A stretch of 64,000 bases of DNA from an uncultured Clostridium sp. (GTDB lineage Bacteria; Bacillota; Clostridia; TANB77; CAG-508). Positions 12,241 through 41,303 of this stretch are shown piece by piece. Where the stretch lies: NCBI GenBank assembly GCA_947368535.1, contig CANBHY010000002.1, positions 95,536 through 159,535 of the forward strand, given 5' to 3'. The position numbers and the translations under genes were made by a program. Position 1 is the stretch's first letter. The number at the start of each line of letters is the position of its first letter. The notes below the pieces were generated by a model. The model did no database searches and had not been told where the DNA came from. It saw only the letters and a list, made by a program, of their open reading frames with translations.

Positions 12241-14682
12241 TTAAATTTTATTAACTTTAGCCACTATAACTGTCATGTCGTCTTTTAAAACTCCATATCC
12301 ATTATCAATAGCTTCATTTATTATAATATCTGCCATTTTTTTAACATTATTTGTATTAATTTCTTTTATCATTTTTATAAGCCAACTATCATCTTGTTGC
12401 TCTGGATTAGACTCTACAATACCATCACTGCACATAATATAAATGTCTCCATCTTTCATATCTCTATCATAAACCGTAAAATCAACATCATTTAATATTC
12501 CTAACGGTAATGAATTAGAATCAATTGTCTCTAACGCTTGCTTATTTTTTATATATGTTTTACAAGCACCATTCTTAATAAATTCAGCTACACCATTATA
12601 AAGATCAAATATCGCAACATCCATAGTAGCATAAATCTCTTCTGTAGAAACTTTAACTGTAGAATTTATCAATTCCATAGAATCTTCCTTTTCAAATCCT
12701 GCAGTTAATGTTTGTCGAAGCATTTTTGCAACTATTTGACTAGATTTTTTAGCTTCTGCACCAGCTCCCATTCCATCACTTAATGCCACTAAATGCTTAT
12801 TATCATCTAATTTAAATTGTATACAACTATCACCAGAAATATCATTTCCTGATTTAGGCAGCCTAGCTAACCCAAGTTGTACAGTATACTTGTCCTCCGA
12901 AATATATTTTTGCAAATATAAATTAGAATCTAAATGAGCTGTATCTTTTTGAAAAACAATTTTTTCTTTACATATCTTAGTTAAAATTGATTCTATGCAT
13001 TTTATCTTATCTTTTTCTTTTATTTGCTTTTCAAATAAAATATCTATAAAATACTTTTTACTTTTATTTTGCTTAACACGGACTTCCTTTACTAAAATAC
13101 TTTTCTGTTTCATCAATTCTTTAATTTCTATTTCTTGTTTTTCAAATATATTATCTTTATTTTTTGATAAATCAACTGCTATATCTGAAATTGCTTTTGA
13201 AACACCTTTTAATTGTTTAGAAATTGATTTTTTATTTTCGTTTAAACGTTGTTTCCATTGAAAGTTCATTTCGTTAATTCTATATGTTCTATTAACTATT
13301 CTTACGACTTGATTTACATCTTCCCTAATAGCCTGATTTGCATAAATATCAAGAATTTCATTTTTTTCTTCATATAGACTAACCATATCTCTTTCTGAAA
13401 TTTCTTCTTTTTCTGCAAGTATCATATATATTTTTTCAATAATATCATTATTAGTATCAATTAAATCTTCATACAAAATATTATTCGGAAAACTATCTAA
13501 GTTATTTAATAAGTCTTCAACAAAAGCCTCTTTACTCCTATTAATATTTTCTATCTCGAGAGCTATTTCTTCATCTTTTAATCCATATGTTTTAGCTATT
13601 TCTTTAACTGTTTTTGAAAGATGTTTCAATTTAGCACCTGCATCTTCACTTTCAGCTAATCTATGTTCTTCTCTTGCTTCAAAAAATTTATTTTTTCCTA
13701 TTAAACCTTCAATATCAATTTGGATATACTTAGGAACAAAAAATATAGCAATTCCTGCAATTAACAATTCCTTATATAACAATACTTGTATAGTATTTCC
13801 GGTTGTTAAATATGATATTAGTGCATTTCCTACTAAAAATCCTGCAACAACACCAATTCGTCCTAATCTATTTACTGCACCTGCTAATAAACCTGATATT
13901 GCAAATGCTAAAACTTGTATAGGTGTAGCAGAACCAATTATTCCTAATATTAAGCCAATAGAAACACCTATAGTACTTCCGACAAGCAATCCATTTTTCC
14001 ATGCTAAAATTAAAATCAAAAAAACAGAAAGTACATTTGAAAGTGAAATTCCATATATTCTATAGCTATTTACACTTACAGCAGCAATTGCTGTAAGCAT
14101 TGTAGCCCCAATAATTTCTTCTATTGTAAAAGCTGATTTTAATCCAAAATTCTCTAACACACCTATGCTATTAACAAAAATTTTATAAAAAACATATGTA
14201 AAAACAATATTTAAAACTGCTACTACTACATCATAAACAAGTAGCACATCTGTTGACAATTTTATAGCATGTACTACTATACAAGCAATAATTAAATTTT
14301 TACCTAATTTAGCAATTTCATTTCTATCATCTTGAATATATGGCTTAAAAAACACTATCGTAAATAAAAAGATTAATACTTTCAAAAAATACATTAAAAA
14401 ACCAGGTATTCCTTGTGAAATAAAAACTCCTAATGCAGTAGCTACTAAAACTGGACCTGCTGGTATAACACTACTACACGCAGCTACAAAAAAAGCAAAT
14501 GCAAATGGTGCTATTCCTTCTCTTAATACTACAGTAGAAACTAAAAAAGATAAAATATAAATAATAATATTTTGAATACTAATTAAATCTTTTATTTTTT
14601 CTAAATTATATTTTTTATTTTCTTTAACATCCTTATTATTTATAGCAATATTATCTGTCAAATTTTGAAACATCCTTACCAC
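12241..14682 (-). CDS. spoIIE: stage II sporulation protein E (membrane PP2C phosphatase)
   Basis: About 10 N-terminal TM helices. C-terminal PP2C domain (SGDSCIQ...ALSDGMGAGAEA). Length 813 aa. Confidence 0.85.
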   Translation of the reverse strand: MVRMFQNLTDNIAINNKDVKENKKYNLEKIKDLISIQNIIIYILSFLVSTVVLREGIAPFAFAFFVAACSSVIPAGPVLVATALGVFISQGIPGFLMYFLKVLIFLFTIVFFKPYIQDDRNEIAKLGKNLIIACIVVHAIKLSTDVLLVYDVVVAVLNIVFTYVFYKIFVNSIGVLENFGLKSAFTIEEIIGATMLTAIAAVSVNSYRIYGISLSNVLSVFLILILAWKNGLLVGSTIGVSIGLILGIIGSATPIQVLAFAISGLLAGAVNRLGRIGVVAGFLVGNALISYLTTGNTIQVLLYKELLIAGIAIFFVPKYIQIDIEGLIGKNKFFEAREEHRLAESEDAGAKLKHLSKTVKEIAKTYGLKDEEIALEIENINRSKEAFVEDLLNNLDSFPNNILYEDLIDTNNDIIEKIYMILAEKEEISERDMVSLYEEKNEILDIYANQAIREDVNQVVRIVNRTYRINEMNFQWKQRLNENKKSISKQLKGVSKAISDIAVDLSKNKDNIFEKQEIEIKELMKQKSILVKEVRVKQNKSKKYFIDILFEKQIKEKDKIKCIESILTKICKEKIVFQKDTAHLDSNLYLQKYISEDKYTVQLGLARLPKSGNDISGDSCIQFKLDDNKHLVALSDGMGAGAEAKKSSQIVAKMLRQTLTAGFEKEDSMELINSTVKVSTEEIYATMDVAIFDLYNGVAEFIKNGACKTYIKNKQALETIDSNSLPLGILNDVDFTVYDRDMKDGDIYIMCSDGIVESNPEQQDDSWLIKMIKEINTNNVKKMADIIINEAIDNGYGVLKDDMTVIVAKVNKI

Positions 14683-14880
14683 CTCATACCTTTTTTAATA
14701 TTTAACAATATGCAAACTAAAAAAGATGTCGTATATCATTATAAAATTAAAAAAGTTATTTACTTTTTGTGATATTTTTCATCAAGTTTTGTCAAGTAGT
14801 GTTCCCATTCTATTACACTTTACAAAAAAAATCAATGATTTAACAACAAATCTGAAAAATCAAAGATTTTTATACAATAA

Positions 14881-14914
14881 AAAACTCAAGTTATTTATAA
14901 TAACTTGAGTTTTA
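14881..14914. terminator. bidirectional terminator hairpin
   Basis: AACTCAAGTTA..TAACTTGAGTT stem with flanking A- and T-runs. Confidence 0.55.
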
Positions 14915-14928
14915 GCTATGTTATGATT

Positions 14929-17889
14929 TTATTCAACTACATGTAACAATTCTGATTTTAACTCTTCTAATCTCTTTTCTGCCTCTTTCATTGTTTTTGC
15001 TTTTACACCCATATAGAACTTCACTTTTGGTTCAGTTCCAGATGGTCTAGCACAACACCATTCATTATTAGCAAGTTCATAATATAAAACATTAGATTTT
15101 GGTAAGTCAATTTTTTCTTCTTTACCTGTATTCATATCTTTTCTAATACTTGTAGTATAATCTCTAATAGCTTCAACTTTATATTTTCCAAAAGTCTTAG
15201 GCTGATTTTTTCTTAAATTGTCCATCAATTCTTTTATTTTTTCTGCACCCTCAGCACCTTTTAAAACAATTGAAACTTGAGCTTCACGATAATATCCATA
15301 TTTTTCATAAATATTAATCATTTGATCCCATAAAGTTAAACCTTGTTTTTTATAATATGCAGCAACCTCGCAAAGCATCATAACTGCAACAATACCATCT
15401 TTATCTCTAGCATGTGTTCCTACTAAACAACCATAACTTTCTTCAAATCCAAATACATATTCATAATCGTGATTTTGTTCAAATCCCCTAATTTGTTCTC
15501 CTATGTACTTAAATCCAGTTAAAGTTTCTATTAAATGCATTTTGTAATGTTCAGCTATAGCATCTGTCAAGTTAGAAGAAACTATAGTTTTTATAATTGC
15601 TCCATTTTTAGGTAACATCTTTTTATTTTTTCTTTGATCTAAAATATATTCAGCTATTAGTAAAGCTGTCATATTTCCTGTATAGAATATATATTCATCA
15701 GTTTTTGTATCTTTAACATATATTCCTAATCTATCAGAGTCAGGATCTGTTGCTAAAATAATATCAGCATCCACCTTTTCAGCTAATTTTAAAGCTAATT
15801 TATATGCCTTTGGATCTTCAGGATTTGGATAATCAACTGTTGGGAAATTTCCATCAGGTAATTCTTGTTCTGGAACAACATATACATGTTTAAATCCAAG
15901 TTCTGCTAGAACTCTTTGAACAGCTTTGTTTCCAGCTCCATGTAAAGGTGTATATACTATTTTTATATCATTACCCATTTCATGAGTAACTTCTGGATTT
16001 ATTGACAAAGACTTTAATTCTTGATTGTATCTTTCATCAATTGATTTTCCAACAGTAACATATAACTTCTTTTCTCCCGCTTCTTCTCTTGAAATTGTTT
16101 TTACCATTGAATAATCAGTAACTTTATTTACTTCTTCAATAATTTCCTTATCTCTAGGTGCTACTATTTGAGCTCCATCATCCCAATATACTTTGTAACC
16201 ATTATACTGAGGTGGATTATGGCTTGCTGTAATCATTACACCAGCTGTAGCTCCTAATTCTCTAACTGCAAATGATAGTTCTGGAACTGGTCTTAATTCG
16301 TCCATAACATATGTTTTTATTCCATTTGCATTTAAAACTAATGCTGTATATTCACTAAATTCTTTTGACATTCTACGAGAATCGTATGAAATTACTACTC
16401 CCTTATCCTCTGTTCCTTGTTTTAATATATAATTTGCCAATCCCTGTGTTGCCTTAGAAACAATATATTTATTCATTCTATTAGTTCCAGCACCAATAAC
16501 TCCTCTAAGTCCAGCTGTTCCAAAATCTAAGCTCTTATAGAAACGATCTTTTATTTCTTCATCATTTCCTCTAATTTTCAATAATTCATTTTTAGTTTCA
16601 TCGTCAATTGCTGGATTTTTGCACCAAGCATCATATTCTTTCATATATTTAACTTTATTCCAGTAATCTGTATAAAGTTTTCTAGCAGTTTCTGGACTAT
16701 CCGCACCCTCAGCATTTTTAATAGGTGCAAATTCTTCTTCTCTTTTTACTCTTAATACTACTACGTCATCAAGCATCTCATATGAGTCAAATATAAATAA
16801 TTCAAATTTATAAGCATTTGGTTTTTTAGGATCAATTTTATTTCCTAATTTATCTGTTTTAGCCTTTTTATGTGCAATATGATAAGGTAATTTTAAATCG
16901 CTAACTCTCTCTAAACCTTTTATGTTATATAAATGGAATATTGCATTAGCATCTCCATAAACTAACGAACCATATTTATCTCTTTGCTCTGCTAATTCTT
17001 CTGAAATTTCAGTGTATTCTATAACTCCAACTTTTTTATTTTTTCTACAAAATACACCAACGTTTTCTTTTGGATCTGTTTTTTCAATTGTCTTAACTGC
17101 TCCTAAAACTTTATTTTCAATAGACATACCAATTAATAATGGATCCACAGATTTAACTAATACATTGTCTACTCCACTAACAAAAATCCATTCAATTCCG
17201 TCTTTTTTCATTTGTGCAATAATTTTTTCTTTTCCCATCGCTTTCAAAGTTCCGCCATGACCATCAGCAGCTTTTTTTACCATTTTATTTTCATCTAATA
17301 AAATTTTTCCTTCTTCATCAAGCATTGGTAGTTCACCTTGAATAAAGAATTGTATTTTTTCTTTAGGGTATCCGAAATATTTGTTTTTCTTGAAGAAATC
17401 AATTGTTGCTGGATTATTTTCCATGCTAGTCATAATATACCAAGGAATAATAACACCATATTCATCATTAGCTCTCTTTAAAGTATCACATAATAACTCA
17501 AATAAAGATTTATGAGAAGGTAATCCCATATCAAAAGTTCCTTTAGGTCCACTATGACCTAACCTAGTTCCTTGACCTCCTGCCATTGTAACTACAGCAA
17601 ACTTATTATCTTTAATAGCATTTATTCCTTTTTCCTCATATTCCTTAGTTTCTGTAGCTGTTAATTTAGATTTATCTACATAATCAATTGGTTCTATAAC
17701 AACATCTTCTAAATCTGGCGGAACTATTACTTTTTCATAAAGTTTATTCATTAAGTCAAAATCTATAGTAAGAATTTGATCTAATAATTTATCTTTATCT
17801 TCATTAGATTTCTCATCATAAAACTTTAATAAGTGTTCTTGGTTGTATTTTTTTACAAGTTTTTGCGCTTTTTCAAATTTTTCGTTCAT
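14929..17889 (-). CDS. bifunctional UDP-sugar pyrophosphorylase (UDPGP/UAP1 family) and phosphohexomutase fusion
   Basis: The N-terminal half has the UDPGP signature (VTMAGGQGTRLG). The C-terminal half has phosphoglucomutase/phosphomannomutase signatures (GTAGLRGVIGAGTNRMN, TASHNPPQYNGYKVY, GFEESYGCLVG, GTEPKVKFY). The start is set at MNEKFEKAQ with a GGAAGGAG RBS. Confidence 0.75.
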   Translation of the reverse strand: MNEKFEKAQKLVKKYNQEHLLKFYDEKSNEDKDKLLDQILTIDFDLMNKLYEKVIVPPDLEDVVIEPIDYVDKSKLTATETKEYEEKGINAIKDNKFAVVTMAGGQGTRLGHSGPKGTFDMGLPSHKSLFELLCDTLKRANDEYGVIIPWYIMTSMENNPATIDFFKKNKYFGYPKEKIQFFIQGELPMLDEEGKILLDENKMVKKAADGHGGTLKAMGKEKIIAQMKKDGIEWIFVSGVDNVLVKSVDPLLIGMSIENKVLGAVKTIEKTDPKENVGVFCRKNKKVGVIEYTEISEELAEQRDKYGSLVYGDANAIFHLYNIKGLERVSDLKLPYHIAHKKAKTDKLGNKIDPKKPNAYKFELFIFDSYEMLDDVVVLRVKREEEFAPIKNAEGADSPETARKLYTDYWNKVKYMKEYDAWCKNPAIDDETKNELLKIRGNDEEIKDRFYKSLDFGTAGLRGVIGAGTNRMNKYIVSKATQGLANYILKQGTEDKGVVISYDSRRMSKEFSEYTALVLNANGIKTYVMDELRPVPELSFAVRELGATAGVMITASHNPPQYNGYKVYWDDGAQIVAPRDKEIIEEVNKVTDYSMVKTISREEAGEKKLYVTVGKSIDERYNQELKSLSINPEVTHEMGNDIKIVYTPLHGAGNKAVQRVLAELGFKHVYVVPEQELPDGNFPTVDYPNPEDPKAYKLALKLAEKVDADIILATDPDSDRLGIYVKDTKTDEYIFYTGNMTALLIAEYILDQRKNKKMLPKNGAIIKTIVSSNLTDAIAEHYKMHLIETLTGFKYIGEQIRGFEQNHDYEYVFGFEESYGCLVGTHARDKDGIVAVMMLCEVAAYYKKQGLTLWDQMINIYEKYGYYREAQVSIVLKGAEGAEKIKELMDNLRKNQPKTFGKYKVEAIRDYTTSIRKDMNTGKEEKIDLPKSNVLYYELANNEWCCARPSGTEPKVKFYMGVKAKTMKEAEKRLEELKSELLHVVE

Positions 17890-17963
17890 TAATATTTTTA
17901 GACTCCTTCCTTTATTACAAATATTACAAATCAAATCAAACATATCTTATACTATTACATTTA

Positions 17964-18437
17964 TTAAGTCAATATACTATTTTTATACCATTTTGCATGA
18001 AACATATCAGATATTTTTTTTACACCTAATGTATTTAAAATGTAATCATGACACTTTAAAATTTCTCTAGAATTTTTTTCAAAAATATCTAATTCAAAAC
18101 AATTAATAACCTTATTTACTTTATCATTCAAACACATATTCATTTTATTAATATACTCATAACTTCCTTTTACTAAAACAATTTTATTCTTCATATTAAA
18201 AATTTCTTCTTCTGATGCTGTATTTTCTGTCCATTCAATCTTTTTCAATTTTGTTTTTTTAGAATTTTCTAAATTAACTTTTGTATAAAATAAATCAACT
18301 TCTTCTTTTAAACTATCTTCAAATATAGTAACGATTTTTTCTCCTTTTTCTAGCTCCTTTTCAATATATGGCATAAGCATCACCACCAGATGCATATCAT
18401 TCACACAAACAGCACAATATCTGTTGTTTTCTACCAT
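17964..18437 (-). CDS. hypothetical protein
   Basis: 157-aa ORF, no recognisable motif. Confidence 0.4.
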   Translation of the reverse strand: MVENNRYCAVCVNDMHLVVMLMPYIEKELEKGEKIVTIFEDSLKEEVDLFYTKVNLENSKKTKLKKIEWTENTASEEEIFNMKNKIVLVKGSYEYINKMNMCLNDKVNKVINCFELDIFEKNSREILKCHDYILNTLGVKKISDMFHAKWYKNSILT

Positions 18438-18596
18438 AAATCATCCCTCCTAGGTATCTCGTTTGGTAAATTTTACCATGTATAATATTATTCGTCAATC
18501 TGTTTCGTATGCCGATTTTCGACATAAAACTAACCTGAATATTATTTGTAAAAATGTTAATACTTTTACAAAATCAATAAACCAAAGGAGACTATT

Positions 18597-19202
18597 ATGA
18601 AATTTAAATCAATACTTTTAATCTTTTTATTATTTATTATTTATTTCACTTTTAATTCATTTTCATATTCTCGCTCAATATCAAACAATCTTGAAGAAAA
18701 CTTATTTAGATTACGTGTTGTAGCAAATAGTGATTCAGAAATAGATCAAAATTTAAAAATACAAGTACGTAATAATATCTTAAATTACTTATCACAATTT
18801 AACTTTTCTAATAAAACAGAAACTATTTCACATCTACAAAATCATAAATCTGACATAGAAAATATAATATCAAGAACCATTACAGACAATGGGTTCGACT
18901 ACACTTTTGAATATGAAATATCTAATTCTTTTTATCCTACTAAAAAATATCATACAGTAACTTTACCTTCTGGAAATTATGATGGTTTACAAATAAAACT
19001 TGGAAAAGCTACTGGTCAAAACTGGTGGTGCATATTATTCCCGCCAATGTGTCTTATAGATTCGTCAACTTGTAAGCTTGAAGAAGATTCAAACGCTTTA
19101 TTATCTAGTAATCTAAATAATGAATCTAATAATGTTATTCAATCTTCTGAATTTAATTACAAATTTAAATTTAAAATCATTGATTTTTTTAATAATTTAT
19201 AA
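18597..19202 (+). CDS. spoIIR: stage II sporulation protein R
   Basis: Signal peptide, conserved RLRVVANSDS and QNWWCILFPPMC motifs. GGAG RBS. Confidence 0.8.
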   Translation: MKFKSILLIFLLFIIYFTFNSFSYSRSISNNLEENLFRLRVVANSDSEIDQNLKIQVRNNILNYLSQFNFSNKTETISHLQNHKSDIENIISRTITDNGFDYTFEYEISNSFYPTKKYHTVTLPSGNYDGLQIKLGKATGQNWWCILFPPMCLIDSSTCKLEEDSNALLSSNLNNESNNVIQSSEFNYKFKFKIIDFFNNL

Positions 19203-19224
19203 TTTAGATATTTTATCTATTCCC

Positions 19225-19253
19225 TTGTCAACATATTTTTTTTATGTTATAAA
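19225..19253 (+). promoter_or_regulatory. putative sigma-A promoter upstream of murA
   Basis: TTGTCA, 17-nt spacer, then TATAAA, located about 100 nt upstream of the murA start. Confidence 0.3.
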
Positions 19254-19361
19254 ATGATATATTAGAATAATTATGTCTAGCTTACTAGATTTTTATAAAT
19301 ATCAAAGATATTGGCTTTTCAAGTATTACAGTATTTTAGAGGTCCATATCAAATTGGGGGT

Positions 19362-20636
19362 ATGTATATGGAAAAATTAGTTATAACGGGACCTACTCCA
19401 CTACGTGGAGATGTAAAAATTAGTGGTGCAAAAAACGCTGCAGTTGCAATAATTCCAGCTACAATATTAATAAATGGTATTTGTACAATAGAAAATTTAC
19501 CTAATATCAGTGACGTTAAAACGTATTGTGAAATACTAGAAAGCTTAGGAGTAAAAGTAACTTGGATAAATAGACACACTGTACAAATTGACTCAAGAAA
19601 AATTACTTCTTCTACTGCTTCATTAGAACTTACTAGAAAGTTTAGAGCATCTTATTATTTAATTGGTTCTTTATTAGGTAGATGCGGAAGAGCAGAAGTT
19701 GGTCTTCCAGGAGGATGTAATTTAGGTCCTAGACCTATTGACCAACATATAAAAGGTTTTGAATCTTTAGGTGCTCATGTTGATGTTTCTAGTGGAAATA
19801 TTACAGCTACATGTGAAAAATTAAAAGCAAATTCAATATATATGGATATAGTATCAGTTGGTGCAACTATGAATGTAATGTTAGCAAGCGTTTTAGCAGA
19901 AGGTACTACTACTATCGATAATGCCGCTAAAGAACCTCATATAGTTGATTTGGCTAACTTTTTAAATACAATGGGAGCAGACATTAGAGGTGCTGGAACT
20001 GATGTGATAAAAGTAAACGGTGTAAAAGAATTAAAAGGAAATGCAACATATTCTATAGTTCCAGATCAAATTGAAGCAGGAACATTTATGCTAGCTGCTA
20101 TTGCTTCTAAAGGAGATATAACCATTCATAACTGTATAACAAAACACTTAGAACCAATAATAGCCAAAATATTAGAAATGGGTGGAAATGTTGATGCTAA
20201 CGGAGATCATGTACGTGTTTGGTGGTCAAAAAGAACTACAAAAGCAAATGTAAAAACACTTCCTTATCCTGGATTTCCTACAGATTTACAATCTCAAATG
20301 GGAGTATGTTTAGCAATGTCTTCCGGAACAAGTATAATTAACGAAAGTATCTGGGAATCACGCTTCCAATATACTCAAGAACTAAACAAGATGGGTGCAA
20401 AAATAACTACATCTGGCAAAACAGCCGTATTCGAAGGTGTTGAATACTTATATGGTGCTCCAGTTAATGCTACAGATTTACGTGCTGGTGCAGCATTGAT
20501 TATTGCTGGAACAAGTGCTAGTGGAAAAACAGAAGTATTTAACTTACATCATATTGATAGAGGATACGAAAACATAGAAGAAAAATTTAGAAAATTAGGT
20601 GCAAAAATAGAAAGAGTAAAATACACTGAAGAATAA
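19362..20636 (+). CDS. murA: UDP-N-acetylglucosamine 1-carboxyvinyltransferase
   Basis: MEKLVITGPTPLRGDVKISGAKNAAVAIIPA N-terminus and strongly conserved MurA motifs throughout. A GGGGG RBS precedes the ATG at 19362 or 19368. The track ORF starts at 19311. Confidence 0.9.
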   Translation: MYMEKLVITGPTPLRGDVKISGAKNAAVAIIPATILINGICTIENLPNISDVKTYCEILESLGVKVTWINRHTVQIDSRKITSSTASLELTRKFRASYYLIGSLLGRCGRAEVGLPGGCNLGPRPIDQHIKGFESLGAHVDVSSGNITATCEKLKANSIYMDIVSVGATMNVMLASVLAEGTTTIDNAAKEPHIVDLANFLNTMGADIRGAGTDVIKVNGVKELKGNATYSIVPDQIEAGTFMLAAIASKGDITIHNCITKHLEPIIAKILEMGGNVDANGDHVRVWWSKRTTKANVKTLPYPGFPTDLQSQMGVCLAMSSGTSIINESIWESRFQYTQELNKMGAKITTSGKTAVFEGVEYLYGAPVNATDLRAGAALIIAGTSASGKTEVFNLHHIDRGYENIEEKFRKLGAKIERVKYTEE

Positions 20637-25536: not shown

Positions 25537-28500
25537 ATGTCAGAATTATTACATGTAGGATTAGATGTAGGTTCAACAACAGTAAAAATCGTTGTAATGA
25601 ATGATAAACAAGAAACAATATATACAAACTATACTAGACACTTTTCAGATACAAAAAATACAATATGTAATGTCTTAGAACAACTATCAAAAGATTATCC
25701 AGATGCTACATATACAATGGCTCTTACTGGTTCTGGAGCCATGTCAGCAGCTAATTTTTTAAAAATACCATTTATACAAGAAGTTATATCTTGTAAACGA
25801 GCTGTTGAAAAATATTTGCCAGAAACTGATATCGTTATTGAATTAGGTGGCGAAGACGCTAAAATCATATATTTTGATAAATTTATTGAGCAAAGAATGA
25901 ACGGAACTTGCGCTGGTGGAACAGGTGCATTTTTAGATCAAATGGCATCATTATTAAATACCGATACAGCAGGACTTAACGAATTAGCAAAAAGCTATAA
26001 AGTTATTTATCCAATTGCATCAAGATGCGGTGTATTTGCTAAAACTGATGTACAACCACTTTTAAACGAAGGTTCTAGAAAAGAAGATATTGCTGCATCA
26101 ATTTTTCAAGCAGTTGTTAATCAAACTATCAGTGGTTTAGCTTGTGGCAGACCAATTAGAGGAAAGGTTGCTTTTCTTGGAGGACCACTTAGTTACCTTC
26201 CAGAGCTTAGAAAACGTTTTATAGAAACACTTGAATTAAAAGATAATGAAATTCTTATTCCTGAAAATGCTCATCTTTTAGTAGCTAAAGGAGCAGCTCT
26301 AGATTCATTAAATTCACCAGAATTTTCAAATTCTCAATTAAAAGAAAAAATTAAAGATTTAAAAGTTGCTAAAGATACGACTACTAAGCCATTAGATCCT
26401 CTTTTTTCTAACGAAGAAGAATATAAAAAATTCAAAAAAAGACATGACAAAGCAAAAATTAAAACAAAATCCCTAGAAAAATATACTGGTGACTGTTTTG
26501 TTGGAATTGATGCTGGTTCAACTACTACAAAATTAGTATTAATAGATACTGATAAAAATTTACTTTATTCTGACTATAAAAGCAACGAAGGCAATCCACT
26601 AAATAGCGTTATAAAAATGCTAAAATCTATGTATGAAAAATTACCTGAAACTGCTAGAATTAGATTTGCTGGAGTAACTGGCTATGGTGAAAAATTAATT
26701 CAAACAGCTTTAAATGTTGATTTAAATGAAATTGAAACAATAGCTCATTACACAGCAGCAAAAGAATTTATGCCAAATGTTACTAGTATCATTGATATTG
26801 GTGGACAAGATATGAAATACATAAAAATGAAAGAAGACGTTATAGACAATATAATGCTAAATGAAGCATGTTCTTCTGGATGTGGATCTTTCATTGAAAC
26901 TTTTGCTAAAAGTTTAGGTTTAACCATCGAAGAATTCGTAAAATCTGCTATTGATTCAAAGGCTCCTGTAGACTTAGGCTCAAGATGTACAGTATTTATG
27001 AACTCAAAAATAAAGCAAGCACAAAAAGAAGGTTACAGTGTTGGCGATATTTCTGCTGGTCTTTCTTTTTCAGTAGTAAAAAATGCTATTCAAAAAGTTA
27101 TGAAAGTCCGTGATATGAAAACTCTTGGAAAACACATTGTTGTACAAGGTGGAACATTCTACAATGATGCTGTTTTAAGAAGTTTTGAAATATTAGTAGG
27201 ACAAAATGTAATTAGACCAAATATATCTGGATTAATGGGTGCATACGGTGTTGCACTACTTTCTAAAGAACAATTTGAAGCAAATTTAGATATGGAATAT
27301 ACTTCAACATTACTAAAAACAGAAGAATTAGATAATCTAAACATAAAAACAACACAAGTACGTTGTGGAAAATGTGAAAATAATTGTCTATTAACCATAA
27401 ATAAATTTAATGATAGTAAATCATTTATATCTGGAAATCGCTGTGAAAAAGGAAGCGGTGGAATTACTGAAAACAAAAATCTACCAAACATGTATAAATA
27501 TAAATTTGAAAGATTATTTGGATATGAGCCATTATCTGAAGAAAAAGCCTTCAGAGGAACAATTGGAATACCTAGAGTTCTAAATATGTATGAAGATTAT
27601 CCATTTTGGTTTACCTTCCTAACAAACTTAGGATTTAGAGTAATTCTTTCAGAAAAAAGTACTAGAAAAACATATGAAAAAGGTATGGAATCAATGCCTT
27701 CGGAATCAGTATGTTACCCTGCTAAATTAAGTCATGGACATATAATGGATCTTCTAGAAAAAGGTATTAAAACAATATTCTATCCTTGTATTCCTTATTC
27801 AAGAAAAGAATATCAAAAAGCAAATAACCATTATAATTGTCCAATCGTAATATCATATTCAGAAGTACTTAAAAACAACGTAGAAGACCTTAAATCTGAA
27901 AATATTAAATTCATTAATACATTTTTACCTTTCGAGATAAAAAACCTCGTAAAAGTCATTTTAGAGCGTGATGAATTTAAAGAATATAATTTTACTAAAA
28001 AAGAATTAACTGAAGCAGCAAAAAAAGCAGAAGAAGAGTATCAAAATTTCAAAAATGATGTCGATAAAAAAGGTCAAGAAATACTAGATTATATGAACAA
28101 AAATGATTTACGAGGAATTGTTCTTGCAGGAAGACCATATCACGTAGATCCAGAAGTAAATCATGGAATTGATACATTAATAACTAGTTTAGGTCTATGT
28201 GTTCTTTCAGAAGACAGTATATCTAAAAAAACTGAAGCAAAAAGACCTATCAGAGTAGTTGATCAATGGGTATATCATGCCAGACTATATGCTGCAGCAG
28301 AATTTACAGGTCAACATGATAACTTAGAACTAATACAATTAAACTCTTTTGGATGTGGCGTTGATGCTGTAACAACAGACCAAGTAGAAGAAATATTAAA
28401 AAGTTATGAAAATATGTACACTCTAATCAAAATAGATGAAGTTAATAACTTAGGAGCAGTCAGAATACGTATTCGTTCACTACTAGCTAGTATGAATAAG

Positions 28501-29820
28501 AAAATAAAAGAAAAGTCAGAAAGACAAACTTGTGAAGATTGTAAGTCCGTAGGAGATTATGAACTTCACCCTATAGAGTTTACTAAAGAGATGAAAAAAG
28601 ACTATACTATTTTAATTCCTCAAATGGCCCCAATCCATTTTGAATTAATAGAAACAGCCGTTAAATCTTGTGGATATAATGTAGAGTTATTAAGAAATTG
28701 CACACCAAATACAGTTGAAACAGGATTGAAATATGTAAATAATGATGCATGCTATCCTTCAATTTTAACTACGGGTCAAATGATTGAAGCCTTAGAGTCA
28801 GGTAAATATGATCCAAATAAAACAGCCTTAATAATGTCTCAAACTGGTGGAGGTTGTAGAGCAACTAACTATATTGGATTTATAAGAAAAGCTCTAAAAG
28901 ACGCCGGTTTCTCACAAGTACCAGTTATATCATTTAATGTGGTTGGTATGGAAAAAATGTCTGGATTTAAAATTACAATTGGCTTAGCAGAAAGACTACT
29001 AAAAAGTGTTACCTATGGTGATTTACTTCAAAAATTATTAATGAAAAATCGCGCATACGAAATAAACAAAGGTGAAACAGAAAAATTATATGAAAAATGG
29101 TTACAAAAATGTAAACAATTAGTTAAAAAATCAAATAGTAAACAATTTAAACAAAGCATTTATGATATTGTAGAAGATTTTGAAAAAATAGAATTAGACA
29201 CAAGTATACCAAAACCTAAAGTTGGTATAGTTGGAGAAGTCTTAATAAAATATCATCCTTTTGGAAACAACTTTGTAGCCAACGTTTTAGAAAAAGAAGG
29301 TGCTGAAGTAATATTACCAGACTTTATGGGATTTATAAAATTTATAGCAACTCATAAAATAACATTTAATAAACTATTAAAAATAGATAAAACAAAAGCA
29401 ACCATCTTTAGAGCAGCTATAAAATTAATAGATATTTTTGAAAAAGATTTAAAAATTGCCTTATCAAAATCTAATAAAAACTACCTGCCACCTTGCGATA
29501 TCTGGCATTTAGAAAATAAAGTAAAAGATATTCTATCTATTGGAAATCAAACTGGTGAAGGTTGGTTCCTAACAGCAGAAATGGTAGAATATATAGAACA
29601 TGACATTCCTAATATCGTTTGTGTTCAACCATTTGCATGTCTTCCTAACCATATTGTTGGAAAAGGTGTAATAAAAACTATTAGAGAAACTTATCCAAAT
29701 GCTAATATTACACCAGTTGATTATGATCCTGGAGCAAGCGAATCAAACCAAACTAATCGATTAAAATTATTAATGACAGTTGCAAAAGATAATTTAAAAA
29801 CAGAACAAAATAAAAAATAA
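25537..29820 (+). CDS. acyl-CoA dehydratase activase-related protein (two BadF/BadG/BcrA/BcrD-type ATPase domains fused to an HgdB-like domain)
   Basis: Two ASKHA-type ATPase N-termini (LHVGLDVGSTTVKIV and CFVGIDAGSTTTKLVL), two Cys-rich segments, and a long C-terminal dehydratase-subunit-like region. 1427 aa. GGAG RBS. Confidence 0.75.
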   Translation: MSELLHVGLDVGSTTVKIVVMNDKQETIYTNYTRHFSDTKNTICNVLEQLSKDYPDATYTMALTGSGAMSAANFLKIPFIQEVISCKRAVEKYLPETDIVIELGGEDAKIIYFDKFIEQRMNGTCAGGTGAFLDQMASLLNTDTAGLNELAKSYKVIYPIASRCGVFAKTDVQPLLNEGSRKEDIAASIFQAVVNQTISGLACGRPIRGKVAFLGGPLSYLPELRKRFIETLELKDNEILIPENAHLLVAKGAALDSLNSPEFSNSQLKEKIKDLKVAKDTTTKPLDPLFSNEEEYKKFKKRHDKAKIKTKSLEKYTGDCFVGIDAGSTTTKLVLIDTDKNLLYSDYKSNEGNPLNSVIKMLKSMYEKLPETARIRFAGVTGYGEKLIQTALNVDLNEIETIAHYTAAKEFMPNVTSIIDIGGQDMKYIKMKEDVIDNIMLNEACSSGCGSFIETFAKSLGLTIEEFVKSAIDSKAPVDLGSRCTVFMNSKIKQAQKEGYSVGDISAGLSFSVVKNAIQKVMKVRDMKTLGKHIVVQGGTFYNDAVLRSFEILVGQNVIRPNISGLMGAYGVALLSKEQFEANLDMEYTSTLLKTEELDNLNIKTTQVRCGKCENNCLLTINKFNDSKSFISGNRCEKGSGGITENKNLPNMYKYKFERLFGYEPLSEEKAFRGTIGIPRVLNMYEDYPFWFTFLTNLGFRVILSEKSTRKTYEKGMESMPSESVCYPAKLSHGHIMDLLEKGIKTIFYPCIPYSRKEYQKANNHYNCPIVISYSEVLKNNVEDLKSENIKFINTFLPFEIKNLVKVILERDEFKEYNFTKKELTEAAKKAEEEYQNFKNDVDKKGQEILDYMNKNDLRGIVLAGRPYHVDPEVNHGIDTLITSLGLCVLSEDSISKKTEAKRPIRVVDQWVYHARLYAAAEFTGQHDNLELIQLNSFGCGVDAVTTDQVEEILKSYENMYTLIKIDEVNNLGAVRIRIRSLLASMNKKIKEKSERQTCEDCKSVGDYELHPIEFTKEMKKDYTILIPQMAPIHFELIETAVKSCGYNVELLRNCTPNTVETGLKYVNNDACYPSILTTGQMIEALESGKYDPNKTALIMSQTGGGCRATNYIGFIRKALKDAGFSQVPVISFNVVGMEKMSGFKITIGLAERLLKSVTYGDLLQKLLMKNRAYEINKGETEKLYEKWLQKCKQLVKKSNSKQFKQSIYDIVEDFEKIELDTSIPKPKVGIVGEVLIKYHPFGNNFVANVLEKEGAEVILPDFMGFIKFIATHKITFNKLLKIDKTKATIFRAAIKLIDIFEKDLKIALSKSNKNYLPPCDIWHLENKVKDILSIGNQTGEGWFLTAEMVEYIEHDIPNIVCVQPFACLPNHIVGKGVIKTIRETYPNANITPVDYDPGASESNQTNRLKLLMTVAKDNLKTEQNKK

Positions 29821-29825
29821 AAAAA

Positions 29826-29856
29826 ATGGATAACTTAGGTTATCCATTTTTTTTCG
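29826..29856 (+). terminator. rho-independent terminator of the activase gene
   Basis: TGGATAAC ttag GTTATCCA followed by TTTTTTTT. Confidence 0.75.
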
Positions 29857-31039
29857 CATTCTAGATAAAAATTTTTGTTTTCAAAATTATAAATATAAAT
29901 TTTATATAAATATCTTTAAAACATCAAGCATTTTTATAGAAAATCCCCTAAATATTTAAATATTACATCCACTTTTTCTATCCTATTTAACTCTTAATTT
30001 TATATATATAACAATTTTATCTTCAATCATTATATCATCTTTGTCTTTCACGTACTGTTTTTGTTTTGTTACATAAAAAATTGGCATCTAAAAAAAATTT
30101 TTCATTTTTCTTTTCAACATAAGTATTATTTTTAAAAGTTTAAAATAATTAATTTTTATCAGTGACTTTATATTAAAAAAAATAAAAAGCAAAATGTTTT
30201 AAAAAAAATACCCTAAATAATTCAATTTAAGAACATTCTTTTAATCTTTAAAAGCTAGTAAACATGGGAAATTTGTGCTAAAAAGATTATTTCAAAAATA
30301 TTTAAAATGTTGCAAACAAAAATCCTTGCAAAAATCGAATATTATATTTTAATGATAATTAACATTAACCTTTTGACAAAAATCAATTAAAACGGAAAAT
30401 AAAAGGTCAAATAATTTTATCTCAAAAAAATTTATGGACAACTCATCAAATCATAAAAATAGTGTAGCTTATATTTTTTTATCCTCTAAAATTTTTTCTC
30501 TATCATTTTTTATTAGTAATTATTTTCTTCAAAATTGCTTTTACTCTAAAAAATTTAATAAAAATAGCAATTATTACATAAAAAATATAAAATAATTATT
30601 ATAAAAATAATTAAATAATAAAAAATAATAATTATTCTTACTTTTTCGCATAAAAATACGATTTTTAAAGCATTTATTACAGTTAAATTCGAACATCTAT
30701 CAATATCAAATTTTCACTCTTTTAAAAACAAATTTCAGTAAAAAATAATTTTTTTCCTTAAATAGCAAAAAAAATTTTTTTCTCGATCAAAAATCCGAAA
30801 TTTTTTTAGTCAATATGATTTTCCCATATATCTCATCTAAATTACTAATTTAAAAAAAGCTATTATTCTAATCATTCATTTTAAAATTTATAAAATCTCA
30901 TCAAAAATATAAAAATATCACCATATACAAAATAGAAAAACTAAAATAATGCTTAATAAAATATAATCGCTATATTATAGGAAATAAGCAAACTAGCAGA
31001 TTTTATATAATTATGGATATGCTTCAAAAATAATATTAA

Positions 31040-31054
31040 TTGCCAAAAAAGTAG
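31040..31054 (-). repeat. 15-nt motif copy (reverse complement CTACTTTTTTGGCAA)
   Basis: Read directly from the sequence: TTGCCAAAAAAGTAG. Confidence 0.6.
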
Positions 31055-32458
31055 TTGTGCTCCTTTCTCTACATTCAGCATAGAAATGACAATTTAAAAT
31101 AGATAAATAAGTCATCTACTTTTTTAGAAATCTTGTTATTAAAATGAAATGACAAATCAAAAATGCACATTTTATAAAAATTTTATTGCTCTTATAAAAC
31201 AAATAGCATATTTTTATTTTTTAAAATAAAAACTCTACTTTTCATGAATTTTAAATTACAATAAAATAATATTTATAAAAAACGTATGTTTGTTTTTGAA
31301 TATTTTTTAAAAATATAGCCTTAAATTCTTCATTTATGTTATGTATACTTATTATTTTTTAAAAAATATCTAAAAATTCAACCTTAGTTATACCAAGCAT
31401 TTCAAATTTTATATACTTTAATATTCTTTCATCTACATTTATATTTACATAATTCTTAATAATATCAAATTACATCAATTTTTTTGATTACCCGATCTTC
31501 TCTATCATATACATATATTAAGTCAAAATATATTTTAAAAAAGACTAAAAATTAAAATTTTTATTTTTCTCTATGCATTTTTAAAAAATTTTAATTTTTA
31601 GACATACTTACTATTTTTTTAAATTATCCTACAAATTTAAAAATATTATAAAAAAGATAATTCTTAAAAAAATCACGTCAAAATTATCCATTTTTTAAAT
31701 TTATTCATTTTTATAATATTCAATCAAATATAGGATTTACAAGCTGTATACGTTTTTTATATAAATGTAATAATGAACTTTTCAAAATTGTTTGCAAAAA
31801 ATAAAATGAAAATCAGAGAAATATTTTTAGTTATTTTTGAGTCAATCAATAATAAAATTTTTTAATTAATTGGCAATTATTTTTATTTAAAATACATACC
31901 TATGACAAAAATAACTTAAAATATAATCCAATTAAAAAATACTTTAACTTTTTACCTTATTTTTAATTTTTATATCTATTTATTCAAAAATACTAAATAT
32001 TACACTAATATAGCATAATATTCAATTAATAATTTATTTATTTATTTTTTTAATGTAAACTTACTAAAAAAAGCTGCTTTTTTTGGTAAAAATCTATAAA
32101 ATTCATATATAGTATTACACTAAATATGATAATTTTTAAAAATTTTTCTAAAAATATACAAATAACACTACTCATTAATATATAAACCTACATTAAATTT
32201 TTTATATACCAAAACAATATATTTTTTAGTCATACGTTAATCAATCCTCTTTTTATGCTTCAAAAAATATTTTTTAATATTTTTTTCTCGTTTTCATTTT
32301 TAAAAATGCAAAATACATATTTTATTTATAAAAAAAAGTTTTAAAAAAATTATGCTTTTTTTCACTTTTAATGTCCAACTTCAATTCATTAAATATGCGG
32401 AAATAAAGATAATTCAAAAAACAGTATATTTTTATTATATATATTTTTTTTAATTTTA

Positions 32459-32473
32459 TTGTCAAAAAAGAAG
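32459..32473 (-). repeat. 15-nt motif copy (reverse complement CTTCTTTTTTGACAA)
   Basis: TTGTCAAAAAAGAAG. Confidence 0.6.
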
Positions 32474-34053: not shown

Positions 34054-34068
34054 TGTCAAAAAAGGAGA
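34054..34068 (-). repeat. 15-nt motif copy (reverse complement CTCCTTTTTTGACAA)
   Basis: TTGTCAAAAAAGGAG. Confidence 0.6.
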
Positions 34069-35129: not shown

Positions 35130-35144
35130 CTACTTTTTTGACAA
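35130..35144 (+). repeat. 15-nt motif copy CTACTTTTTTGACAA
   Basis: Exact. Preceded 38 nt upstream by TTTTTTTGTCTGA. Confidence 0.65.
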
Positions 35145-36139: not shown

Positions 36140-36154
36140 CTACTTTTTTGACAA
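36140..36154 (+). repeat. 15-nt motif copy CTACTTTTTTGACAA
   Basis: Exact. Preceded by TTTTTTTGTCTAG at 36095 and 36026, and by an inverted TGTCAAAAAAT at 36074. Confidence 0.65.
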
Positions 36155-37083: not shown

Positions 37084-37098
37084 CTACTTTTTTGACAA
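37084..37098 (+). repeat. 15-nt motif copy CTACTTTTTTGACAA
   Basis: Exact. Confidence 0.65.
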
Positions 37099-38099: not shown

Positions 38100-38114
38100 C
38101 TACTTTTTTGACAA
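38100..38114 (+). repeat. 15-nt motif copy CTACTTTTTTGACAA
   Basis: Exact. Preceded 36 nt upstream by TTTTTTGTCTAA. A possible -10 TATTAT lies 17 nt after the embedded TTGACA. Confidence 0.65.
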
Positions 38115-41172: not shown

Positions 41173-41211
41173 GTATAATTATAAAGCTAGATAGTATTTC
41201 ATATCTAGCAT

Positions 41212-41303
<92 letters not shown>

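What the first reader, a model, noticed from the sequence alone, without database searches (positions are those of the whole stretch)
14929..17889. Single-polypeptide fusion of a UDPGP/UAP1-type UDP-sugar pyrophosphorylase with a phosphohexomutase
The N-terminal ~480 aa carry the eukaryotic-type UDPGP signature (MAGGQGTRLG), like UDP-GlcNAc/UDP-Glc pyrophosphorylase. The C-terminal ~520 aa carry all four alpha-D-phosphohexomutase motifs, including the TASHNP active-site serine loop. The two consecutive steps (hexose-6-P to hexose-1-P to UDP-hexose) are normally separate bacterial enzymes (PgcA/GlmM plus GtaB/GlmU). A covalent fusion implies substrate channelling toward a UDP-sugar, possibly for spore cortex, coat or cell-wall polysaccharide given the sporulation-gene neighbourhood. 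The gene sits between the spoIIE and spoIIR loci.
Basis: partly seen in the sequence, partly recalled or inferred. Interest (0 to 1): 0.5.

Follow-up and report, generated by a model that had tools for sequence, protein, structure and literature searches.

The report
Fused UDP-sugar pyrophosphorylase and phosphohexomutase gene
An uncultured gut Clostridia lineage has joined two neighbouring sugar-activation genes, a eukaryote-like UDP-sugar pyrophosphorylase and a PgcA-type phosphosugar mutase, into one conserved 986-residue protein; this is a real but fairly ordinary gene fusion, and which sugar it acts on is still unknown.

Summary
Window 14929-17889 (minus strand) is one uninterrupted 986-codon ORF.

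- **N-terminal part (residues 1-412):** a UAP1/AGX1-type UDPGP domain. E is 1e-81 to eukaryotic UDP-GlcNAc pyrophosphorylases but only 1e-12 to UDP-glucose pyrophosphorylases.
- **C-terminal part (residues 413-986):** a full-length phosphohexomutase, 49% identical end to end to B. subtilis PgcA. All four catalytic loops are present.
- **Not an artefact:** the same architecture occurs in more than 120 protein clusters. It is also found in 63 of the 80 best-matching species genomes. All are gut MAGs of uncultured Clostridia, some named Candidatus Scatovivens.
- **Origin:** in 17 more distant relatives the two halves are separate, adjacent, same-strand genes. The fusion therefore arose by loss of the stop codon and spacer between operon neighbours. 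There is no linker.

The sugar is unresolved. The N half keeps 5 of 6 GlcNAc-1-P contact residues, with Asn replaced by an invariant His, which favours UDP-GlcNAc. The C half looks like a phosphoglucomutase, which favours UDP-Glc.

The proposed sporulation link is weak. spoIIE adjacency is not conserved, and a terminator separates the genes. The only constant same-strand partner is an upstream MEDS-like 157-aa ORF.

I found no publication on this bacterial fusion. Diatoms have an analogous UGP/PGM fusion.

The parts
14929..17889 (-). Complete CDS of the 986-aa bifunctional protein, including the stop codon at 14929-14931
   Evidence: ORF listing. Identical 986-aa protein P0001 in the database. 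Pfam architecture.
16654..17889 (-). N-terminal UAP1/AGX1-type UDP-sugar pyrophosphorylase domain, residues 1-412
   Evidence: Pfam UDPGP E 1.4e-46. PDB best hits are all eukaryotic UDP-GlcNAc pyrophosphorylases at E about 1e-81, against 4e-12 for UGPase. The standalone relative P0259 (417 aa) aligns to residues 10-413.
17557..17586 (-). Nucleotide-binding loop MAGGQGTRLG, residues 102-111
   Evidence: Translation. Invariant in 77 fused or split relatives and in alignments A1 and A4.
17257..17259 (-). His211, at the position of the hexosamine-contacting Asn of UAP1 enzymes (AfUAP1 Asn249, AGX1 Asn223)
   Evidence: Alignment to AfUAP1 and mouse UAP1 shows DGHGG against DGNGG. His is invariant in all fused and split relatives. 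The role of the Asn is taken from PMC8386105 and PMC3888555.
16717..16719 (-). Lys391, equivalent to the sugar-1-P-contacting Lys of UAP1 (AfUAP1 Lys437)
   Evidence: Alignment. Invariant. FAP[IVL]KN is present in 82 relatives.
14932..16653 (-). C-terminal PgcA-type alpha-D-phosphohexomutase, residues 413-986
   Evidence: Pfam PGM_PMM_I to III. 49% identity over 575 aa to B. subtilis PgcA (P0410). The standalone relative P0122 (573 aa, 61% identity) aligns to residues 414-981.
16213..16230 (-). Phosphoserine loop TASHNP, with catalytic Ser556
   Evidence: Translation. TASHN is present in 83 relatives.
15730..15747 (-). Metal-binding loop DPDSDR, residues 715-720
15430..15450 (-). Sugar-binding loop GFEESYG, residues 814-820; GYEESYG in B. 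subtilis PgcA
15025..15048 (-). Phosphate-binding loop RPSGTEPK, residues 948-955, in domain IV
   Evidence: 83 of 83 relatives.
16618..16695 (-). Fusion junction (residues about 399-424). There is no linker. Val413 occupies the place of the former initiator Met of the mutase gene.
   Evidence: Comparison with split relatives, the PgcA alignment and translation. AlphaFold predicts one continuous helix over 399-424 at moderate confidence, pLDDT about 67-77.
14881..14913 (-). Intrinsic-terminator-like hairpin (15-bp stem, then a T run) starting 16 nt after the stop codon
17964..18437 (-). 157-aa ORF directly upstream on the same strand. It is MEDS-like with a RecA/KaiC-like fold and no Walker A motif. 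It is a probable operon partner of unknown role.
18470..18498 (-). Sigma-70-like promoter match (TTGACG, 17 nt, TG-TAAAAT) upstream of the 157-aa ORF
   Evidence: This is a consensus match only; the number of matches in the region was not above the shuffled expectation.

Best explanation
This is a genuine bifunctional enzyme created when two neighbouring genes of one operon were joined in frame.

- **Mutase step.** The C-terminal PgcA-type phosphohexomutase moves the phosphate of a hexose-type sugar from C6 to C1. It uses phospho-Ser556 and Mg2+ held by Asp715/717/719.
- **Uridylyl transfer step.** The N-terminal UAP1-type uridylyltransferase then condenses that sugar-1-phosphate with UTP to give the UDP-sugar and pyrophosphate. 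It uses the MAGGQGTRLG loop and Lys391.
- **Order.** The order on the polypeptide (second step first) simply reflects the ancestral gene order, UAP-like gene then mutase gene.
- **Effect of fusion.** It fixes a 1:1 ratio and co-expression of the two steps. Direct channelling is possible but not shown.
- **Which sugar.** My preferred reading is GlcNAc-6-P to GlcNAc-1-P to UDP-GlcNAc (about 45%). This would be a eukaryote-like short cut that bypasses NagA/GlmM/GlmU. Glc-6-P to UDP-Glc is the main alternative (about 35%).
- **Shown:** the domains, the intact catalytic motifs, conservation, and origin from adjacent genes.
- **Inferred:** both activities, the direction of flux and the sugar.
For: - **Single ORF.** It has a UDPGP domain plus PGM_PMM_I to III domains.
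- **N half.** It matches eukaryotic UAP1/AGX1 at E about 1e-81 over about 400 aa, against 4e-12 for UGPase. Five of the six residues that hydrogen-bond GlcNAc-1-P in AfUAP1 are conserved: Gly278, Glu291, Tyr292, Asn315 and Lys391. The KFExFIFD motif is also kept.
- **C half.** It is 49% identical over 575 aa to B. subtilis PgcA, with all four catalytic loops invariant.
- **Recurrence.** The fusion is found in at least 120 clusters at 67-100% identity. It is fused in 63 of the 80 loci kept from the genome-collection scan (66 of 83 loci when three metagenome contigs are added). One further deep-branching representative is 52% identical (P0121).
- **Unfused state.** Seventeen relatives keep the two halves as adjacent same-strand genes 12-126 nt apart. 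The pair also persists in a different genomic context (L085; L084).
- **Junction.** It has no linker, and a continuous helix is predicted across it.
- **Single origin.** A neighbour-joining tree of the N half needs only one fused/split change.
Against: - No enzyme assay exists. I found no characterised bacterial member of this UAP1-like clade.
- The two halves point to different sugars. The mutase is closest to a phosphoglucomutase. The uridylyltransferase is closest to UDP-GlcNAc pyrophosphorylases, yet it has replaced the conserved hexosamine-contacting Asn by His in every member.
- The whole-protein AlphaFold model is only moderate (pLDDT 76.8, pTM 0.59). It gives no reliable inter-domain geometry, so nothing can be said about channelling.
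- I could not check whether these genomes also carry glmM, glmU or gtaB.
Confidence: 0.7

Rival explanations
1. The same two-step enzyme, but dedicated to glucose: Glc-6-P to Glc-1-P to UDP-Glc. It would replace or supplement the usual PgcA plus GtaB/GalU pair and supply glycolipid, teichoic-acid or polysaccharide synthesis.
For: The C half is 49% identical end to end to the characterised phosphoglucomutase PgcA and has the same sugar loop. The one sugar-contact residue that differs from UAP1 enzymes is His211. From my own knowledge (not tested here), UGPases and USPases carry GHGD at that position. Arabidopsis GlcNAc1pUT-2, a UAP1-type enzyme, also uses Glc-1-P (PMC3888555). A GT2 glycosyltransferase lies downstream in some relatives.
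Against: The N half is far closer to UAP1 than to UGPase (1e-81 against 4e-12). It keeps the UAP1-type nucleotide loop and the FxFD motif. From my own knowledge, that motif lines the acetamido pocket. UAP1 enzymes have a larger sugar pocket than UGPase or USPase (PMC3888555).
Confidence: 0.35
2. The fusion is an artefact: two genes joined by a sequencing or assembly error, or a recent non-functional read-through.
For: Seventeen relatives have separate genes, three of them with only a single in-frame stop between the halves (L069, L075, L083). A single base change could therefore toggle the state.
Against: The fused ORF is found in 63 different species-level genomes and in more than 120 protein clusters from independent assemblies. 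One of these, P0045, is indexed in 72 blocks of the contig collection. Fused members span 50-92% identity, with all catalytic residues and the junction conserved.
Confidence: 0.02
3. The protein is a sporulation-specific supplier of UDP-sugar for cortex, coat or forespore envelope synthesis, as the reader suggested from its position between spoIIE and spoIIR.
For: spoIIR and murA lie divergently upstream in 79 and 73 of 84 loci. spoIIE follows the gene in the window and its closest relatives.
Against: spoIIE is immediately downstream in only 7 loci and lies beyond a terminator-like hairpin. In relatives at 71% identity the downstream genes are GT2 and SDR genes. spoIIR and murA are on the other strand, and all these loci come from one family, so the synteny may be simple inheritance. 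The unfused pair sits next to dnaJ and conjugation-like genes in L085. The only promoter-like match is sigma-70-type.
Confidence: 0.1
4. The enzyme works mainly in the catabolic direction. It would break down UDP-HexNAc or UDP-hexose with pyrophosphate to the sugar-1-P and then to the sugar-6-P for glycolysis, as part of host-glycan sugar use in the gut.
For: Both reactions are freely reversible (established enzymology). The hosts are gut anaerobes (record titles).
Against: No neighbouring glycan-utilisation, kinase, phosphorylase or epimerase genes are conserved. Nothing here bears on the direction of flux.
Confidence: 0.08

Closest known systems
Eukaryotic UDP-N-acetylglucosamine pyrophosphorylase (UAP1/AGX1; PDB 1jv1, 1vm8, 4bma, 9g53)
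   Same: The N half aligns over about 400 residues at E about 1e-81. It shares the LxxGGQGTRLG nucleotide loop and the contact residues Gly, Glu-Tyr, Asn and Lys for GlcNAc-1-P. It also shares the FxFD motif.
   Different: The conserved hexosamine-contacting Asn (AGX1 Asn223, AfUAP1 Asn249) is His in every member. The domain is shorter (about 412 aa against about 500) and is bacterial. It is covalently attached to a mutase.
Bacillus subtilis PgcA (alpha-phosphoglucomutase, PGCA_BACSU)
   Same: The C half is 49% identical over the full length. It has the same N-terminal helical extension and the same four catalytic loops.
   Different: PgcA is a free-standing 581-aa protein encoded away from its partner GtaB. 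Here the former start codon is now Val413, inside a longer polypeptide.
Diatom cytosolic UGP/PGM fusion protein (Phaeodactylum tricornutum 50444, also called UGP1)
   Same: It is a natural single polypeptide combining a UDP-sugar pyrophosphorylase with a phosphoglucomutase, two consecutive steps. It is named in the same order (PMC2173943; PMC10356853).
   Different: It is eukaryotic, annotated as UDP-glucose pyrophosphorylase, and used for chrysolaminarin synthesis. Sequence relationship to the Clostridia fusion was not tested, and an independent origin is presumed.
Unfused adjacent gene pair in related gut Clostridia: a 'UDPGP type 1 family protein' of about 413 aa followed by a phospho-sugar mutase of about 575 aa
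   Same: The halves are 53-59% and 63-69% identical to the query halves. The upstream synteny is the same: MEDS-like ORF, spoIIR, murA.
   Different: The two genes are separated by a stop codon and 12-126 nt, and several spacers contain a terminator-like hairpin.
GlmU (bacterial bifunctional GlcN-1-P acetyltransferase / GlcNAc-1-P uridylyltransferase)
   Same: It is another bacterial bifunctional enzyme that ends in a UDP-sugar, and it is the canonical bacterial route to UDP-GlcNAc.
   Different: It has an unrelated fold family (NTP_transferase plus hexapeptide repeats). No Pfam match to it was found here. It couples acetylation to uridylylation, not a mutase to uridylylation.

Membership tests
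UDPGP family (Pfam PF01704) | Profile match above the curated gathering score | tested here: met
   159.5 bits against a cut-off of 22, E 1.4e-46, residues 66-394.
UAP1/AGX1 subfamily (UDP-HexNAc pyrophosphorylase) | Closer to UAP1 than to UGPase or USPase | tested here: met
   The top 11 PDB hits are all UDP-GlcNAc pyrophosphorylases (E 8e-81 to 8e-47). The best UGPase hit is 3.7e-12.
UAP1/AGX1 subfamily (UDP-HexNAc pyrophosphorylase) | Nucleotide-binding loop L-x2-G-x-G-T-x-(L/M)-x4-P-K | tested here: met
   TMAGGQGTRLGHSGPK, residues 101-116, invariant in A1 and A4.
UAP1/AGX1 subfamily (UDP-HexNAc pyrophosphorylase) | All six residues that hydrogen-bond GlcNAc-1-P in AfUAP1 (Asn249, Gly316, Glu329, Tyr330, Asn355, Lys437; PMC8386105) | tested here: not met
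   Five are kept: Gly278, Glu291, Tyr292, Asn315 and Lys391. Asn249 is replaced by His211, which is invariant in all fused and split relatives.
UAP1/AGX1 subfamily (UDP-HexNAc pyrophosphorylase) | Uridylyltransferase activity with GlcNAc-1-P or GalNAc-1-P | not testable with these tools
   This needs an enzyme assay.
alpha-D-phosphohexomutase superfamily | Domains I-III above the Pfam gathering scores | tested here: met
   148.1, 87.9 and 82.8 bits against cut-offs of 22.5, 29.3 and 20.7.
alpha-D-phosphohexomutase superfamily | Domain IV with the phosphate-binding loop | tested here: met
   Pfam PF00408 was not reported for the query at E<=0.01. However, RPSGTEPK is present and invariant, and PF00408 is detected in the homologues P0121 and P0036.
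alpha-D-phosphohexomutase superfamily | Catalytic phosphoserine loop TASHNP, metal loop DxDxDR and a sugar-binding loop | tested here: met
   TASHNP at 554-559, DPDSDR at 715-720 and GFEESYG at 814-820.
PgcA / PGM2-type phosphoglucomutase | Full-length similarity to a characterised member | tested here: met
   49% identity and 69% positives over 575 aa to PGCA_BACSU. That sequence was confirmed by exact look-up.
PgcA / PGM2-type phosphoglucomutase | Glc-6-P to Glc-1-P activity | not testable with these tools
   This needs an enzyme assay.
GlmM (phosphoglucosamine mutase), NCBIfam TIGR01455 / TIGR03990 | Score at or above the equivalog cut-off | tested here: not met
   99.7 bits against 447.55, and 183.9 bits against 439.
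Eukaryotic AGM1/PGM3 (GlcNAc-phosphate mutase) | Closest solved relatives are AGM1 | tested here: not met
   No N-acetylglucosamine-phosphate mutase chain appears among the 60 PDB matches listed (65 matched at E<=1e-5). The best are archaeal phospho-sugar mutases and PGMs.
GalU/GtaB/GlmU-type nucleotidyltransferase (PF00483) | Pfam NTP_transferase match | tested here: not met
   No such hit.
Diatom UGP/PGM fusion | Sequence orthology of both halves with the P. tricornutum protein | not tested
   Only the architecture is known, from the literature. No diatom-like fusion was among the best 150 representatives.

The most novel reading that the evidence does not exclude
An uncultured family of gut Clostridia makes UDP-GlcNAc (or UDP-GalNAc) directly from GlcNAc-6-P on one polypeptide. 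It would use a eukaryote-like mutase plus UAP1 route instead of, or alongside, the universal bacterial NagA/GlmM/GlmU route. A PgcA-type mutase would be recruited as the GlcNAc-phosphate mutase, and a MEDS-like sensor protein would control the operon. If so, the widespread but uncharacterised bacterial 'UDPGP type 1' proteins would gain a function, and the fused protein would be a natural model for testing channelling between the two steps.
Probability: 0.3. Interest if true: 0.55.

Novelty: new variant of a known kind. Interest (0 to 1): 0.3.

Why it matters
Both halves belong to well-known enzyme families, and fusions of consecutive sugar-nucleotide steps are known (GlmU, PMI-GMP, the diatom UGP/PGM).

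What is new is this particular combination in bacteria. Together with the conserved unfused gene pair, it gives Rosetta-stone evidence that bacterial UAP1-like 'UDPGP type 1' proteins, which are numerous in gut Clostridia and have no assigned function, work with a PgcA-type mutase.

That makes one concrete question testable: do some Firmicutes have a eukaryote-like, GlmU-independent route to UDP-GlcNAc, or a GtaB-independent route to UDP-Glc?

Public annotation of the protein is incomplete. It is labelled 'hypothetical protein' or only 'UTP--glucose-1-phosphate uridylyltransferase'.

The fused protein could also serve as a compact one-enzyme biocatalyst for making UDP-sugars from sugar-6-phosphates.

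Tried and rejected
- **Mis-assembly or frameshift:** rejected because of recurrence and conservation.
- **Internal translation start for a separate mutase:** the only nearby ATG (Met416) has no Shine-Dalgarno-like sequence upstream. The former start position is now Val413.
- **Regulatory RNA or riboswitch around the gene:** no Rfam match at E<=0.1 in 14400-19400.
- **Literature:** five searches for a described bacterial UAP/UGP-PGM fusion, or a characterised bacterial UAP1 homologue, found nothing relevant. Peneff et al. 2001 (AGX1 structure) is not held.
- **Same-frame pattern in split pairs:** 16 of 17 split gene pairs have both genes in the same reading frame. I do not read this as biology. 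The loci were the top 80 of 503 ranked by tblastn, which may favour same-frame pairs. Of two pairs found independently, one is in frame and one is not.
- **Whole-protein AlphaFold model:** only moderate confidence, and no coordinates or PAE are returned, so it could not address the distance between active sites.
- **Downstream neighbours:** no conserved partner that would identify the sugar.
- **NCBIfam:** no model covers the N half, and the mutase models all score below their cut-offs.
Full report

Yes. The minus strand carries one open reading frame from 17943 (first ATG) to the stop at 14929-14931.
Database homologues are 986-988 aa and start at the same Met, including a 100% identical entry, P0001. 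A GGAAGGAG Shine-Dalgarno-like sequence lies within the 18 extra codons.
- Pfam finds UDPGP (residues 66-394, E 1.4e-46) followed by PGM_PMM_I, II and III (455-592, 624-724, 738-854; E 1.6e-43 to 2.6e-23). All are far above their gathering scores.
- The quoted motifs are present at the translated coordinates: MAGGQGTRLG (102-111), TASHNP (554-559), DPDSDR (715-720), GFEESYG (814-820) and RPSGTEPK (948-955).

**2. Is it an artefact?**

No.
- A search of 5.8 billion proteins returned at least 120 clusters of 984-1001 aa with the same four-domain architecture at 67-100% identity. They come from many independent assemblies. One of them, P0045, is indexed in 72 blocks of the contig collection, and 23 contigs carrying it were read.
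- I scanned one genome per species with an alignment of the junction region. The 80 best loci are all gut metagenome-assembled genomes. They are labelled uncultured Clostridia or Clostridium, and several are named Candidatus Scatovivens, which NCBI places in Clostridiaceae incertae sedis.
- In 63 of these 80 loci a single ORF spans the junction.
- Across fused members the halves range from 56-92% (N) and 50-92% (C) identity to the query. All catalytic residues of both halves are invariant, and the junction itself is conserved.

**3. What are the two halves?**

N half.
- Its best solved relatives are all eukaryotic UDP-GlcNAc pyrophosphorylases: mouse and human AGX1/UAP1, and the Aspergillus, Candida, Entamoeba and Trypanosoma enzymes. 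E-values run from 8e-81 to 8e-47 over about 400 residues. The best UDP-glucose pyrophosphorylase scores 3.7e-12.
- The residues that hydrogen-bond GlcNAc-1-P in A. fumigatus UAP1 are Asn249, Gly316, Glu329, Tyr330, Asn355 and Lys437 (PMC8386105; see also PMC3888555).
- Mapping them through the printed alignment gives His211, Gly278, Glu291, Tyr292, Asn315 and Lys391. Five of six are kept. The Asn is replaced by His in every fused and every split relative.

C half.
- The PDB holds only distant relatives.
- It is 49% identical to residues 414-986 over 575 positions, from the N-terminal helices to the C-terminus, with the same catalytic loops.
- NCBIfam GlmM, Pgm and ManB equivalog models all score far below their cut-offs. 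No AGM1-type mutase appears among the 60 PDB matches listed.

**4. How did the fusion arise?**

- An exhaustive HMMER search of 1.84 billion representatives at 50% identity lists only one other full-length fusion among the 150 best-scoring hits (P0121, 1002 aa, 52% identity). More distant fusions would score below that list.
- The nearest free-standing relatives are a 573-aa mutase (P0122, 61% identity, aligning to 414-981) and a 417-aa UDPGP protein (P0259, 53% identity, aligning to 10-413).
- In 17 of the 80 genome loci the two halves are separate, adjacent, same-strand genes of 411-418 aa (one copy is truncated) and 573-595 aa. The mutase gene is interrupted in L082. They are 53-59% and 63-69% identical to the query halves.
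- Their spacers are 12-126 nt, and several contain a terminator-like hairpin.
- Comparing junctions shows that the fused protein runs from the last residues of the UAP-like protein (...KLYTDYWNK412) straight into the first residue of the mutase. Val413 stands where the split genes have their initiator Met (MDYLKEYERW against VKYMKEYDAW). No linker was added.
- AlphaFold predicts one helix over residues 399-424 across the boundary, at moderate confidence (pLDDT about 67-77; whole model pLDDT 76.8, pTM 0.59).
- A neighbour-joining tree of the N halves separates fused from split forms with one change. The C-half tree needs two. This fits one or very few fusion events. The trees are rough.
- The unfused pair also exists outside the usual synteny (L085, 9-nt spacer, next to dnaJ and conjugation-like genes). 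One standalone UAP-like gene has no mutase next to it (L086).

**5. Genomic context**

- Clustering the flanking ORFs of 84 loci shows a conserved block. MBL-fold hydrolase, murA and spoIIR lie on one strand. Diverging from them are a 145-203-aa ORF and then the UAP/mutase gene or genes.
- The small ORF is present in 71 loci and is the immediate upstream neighbour in 62, for both fused and split forms.
- The downstream side is variable. spoIIE is immediately downstream in 7 loci. In others the neighbour is a PP-loop ATPase-like ORF (ATP_bind_3 in the matching position of L084 and L085), GT2 plus SDR genes, or something else.
- In the window, a 15-bp-stem hairpin followed by a T run starts 16 nt after the stop codon (14881-14913). 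This separates the gene from spoIIE.
- A sigma-70-like match (TTGACG, 17 nt, TG-TAAAAT) precedes the small ORF.
- No Rfam element lies in 14400-19400.
- The small ORF has no Pfam hit at the normal threshold. All 16 homologues give a sub-threshold MEDS match (best E 1.4e-4).

**6. Mechanism**

- By analogy with both families, the C half should interconvert a sugar-6-phosphate and the alpha-1-phosphate through a bisphosphate intermediate, using phospho-Ser556 and Mg2+.
- The N half should then transfer UMP from UTP to the sugar-1-phosphate.
- That these are consecutive steps on the same sugar is supported by three things: the conserved adjacency of the unfused genes, its persistence in different contexts, and the fusion itself.

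Which sugar is not decided.
- For N-acetylhexosamine: the N half is a UAP1-type enzyme by overall similarity, nucleotide loop and five of six sugar contacts. It also keeps FxFD. The role of that motif in the acetamido pocket is my recollection of the AGX1 structure. UAP1 pockets are larger than those of UGPase and USPase (PMC3888555). PgcA-type mutases are the more promiscuous partner, again from my own knowledge: B. subtilis PgcA also acts on glucosamine phosphates, and human PGM2 acts on pentose phosphates.
- For glucose: the mutase is ortholog-like to a phosphoglucomutase. The one altered sugar contact has become His, the residue I recall at this position in UGPases and USPases (GHGD; not tested here). 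At least one plant UAP1-type enzyme also accepts Glc-1-P.
- My estimate is UDP-HexNAc about 45%, UDP-Glc about 35%, and broad or other specificity the remainder.
- Channelling is possible but untested.

**7. Comparison with what is known, and novelty**

- Natural fusion of a UDP-sugar pyrophosphorylase with a phosphoglucomutase is known in diatoms: the cytosolic UGP/PGM protein 50444, also called UGP1 (PMC2173943; PMC10356853).
- Bacteria have other bifunctional sugar-nucleotide enzymes, such as GlmU.
- Five literature searches found no description of a bacterial UAP1-like/PgcA fusion, and no characterised bacterial UAP1 homologue.
- In NCBI the protein is called 'hypothetical protein' or 'UTP--glucose-1-phosphate uridylyltransferase'. 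The unfused N-type proteins are called 'UDPGP type 1 family protein'.
- I class it as a new variant of a known kind. It is a textbook fusion of operon neighbours, confined to one uncultured gut lineage. Its main value is the functional link it gives to an uncharacterised bacterial enzyme family.

**8. Verdict**

The fusion, the domain identities and the consecutive-step logic hold. Channelling is untested and the sporulation role is weakly supported.
- Interest is 0.3.

Noticed in passing
window 29820-41080: About 11.3 kb of 85.5% A+T DNA (GC 12-17% against 25-33% elsewhere). It has no ORF of 120 aa or more on either strand and no Rfam hit apart from two tRNAs at 41084-41303. Reassigning stop codons gives no ORF signal above shuffled sequence.

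It holds 9 copies (0.28 expected) of TCTACTTTTTTGACAA. In the four exact copies this is preceded about 40 nt upstream by TTTTTTGTCT. Spacing is about 0.9-1.6 kb. Three copies are on the minus strand (31040-34068) and six on the plus strand (35129-40146), so orientation flips near 34.3-34.5 kb, where T-rich tandem repeats lie.

A metagenome contig (L088) has four copies with the same spacing. Unexplained.
   Followed up: partly
window 17964-18437 (-): A 157-aa ORF with no Pfam hit at the normal threshold. It is conserved directly upstream of the UAP/mutase gene or genes in 71 of 84 loci. It gives a sub-threshold MEDS match in 16 of 16 homologues and has a RecA/KaiC-like predicted fold without a Walker A motif. 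It may be a sensor or regulator of the operon.
   Followed up: partly
loci L065-L083 (split relatives): In 16 of 17 unfused pairs the two genes are in the same reading frame, despite spacers of 12-126 nt. In L069, L075 and L083 no stop codon other than the first gene's own interrupts the shared frame, and the second gene's ATG follows 12-18 nt later. This is probably a ranking bias of the tblastn-based locus search. Of two pairs found independently, one is in frame (L085) and one is not (L084).
   Followed up: partly
window 44424-63675: The window spans the chromosomal origin region: mnmG, mnmE and yidC on the minus strand, then dnaA (50501-51856), dnaN, recF, gyrB and gyrA on the plus strand. 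The fusion gene lies about 33 kb from dnaA.
   Followed up: no
window 56600-61231: gyrB and gyrA are separated by about 4.6 kb. This stretch carries a 529-aa TraG/AAA_10/HerA-like P-loop ATPase (57902-59491), a 330-aa ORF with no Pfam hit, and a 224-aa ORF. It may be an inserted element or defence-like genes.
   Followed up: no
proteins P0167, P0165, P0204, P0123, P0232: Other multidomain relatives turned up. P0167 is an alpha-amylase domain fused to a PgcA-like mutase (1205 aa). P0165 is a VTT membrane domain fused to the mutase (757 aa). P0204 is a 1030-aa protein with an unassigned 450-aa N-terminus before the mutase. P0123 and P0232 are 1447-1888-aa proteins with two or three UDPGP copies plus an ADH_N domain.
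   Followed up: no
window 25537-29820 (+): A 1427-aa ORF combines two BcrAD/BadFG ATPase domains with DUF2229 (a CoA-enzyme activase type). It directly abuts the AT-rich block.
   Followed up: no
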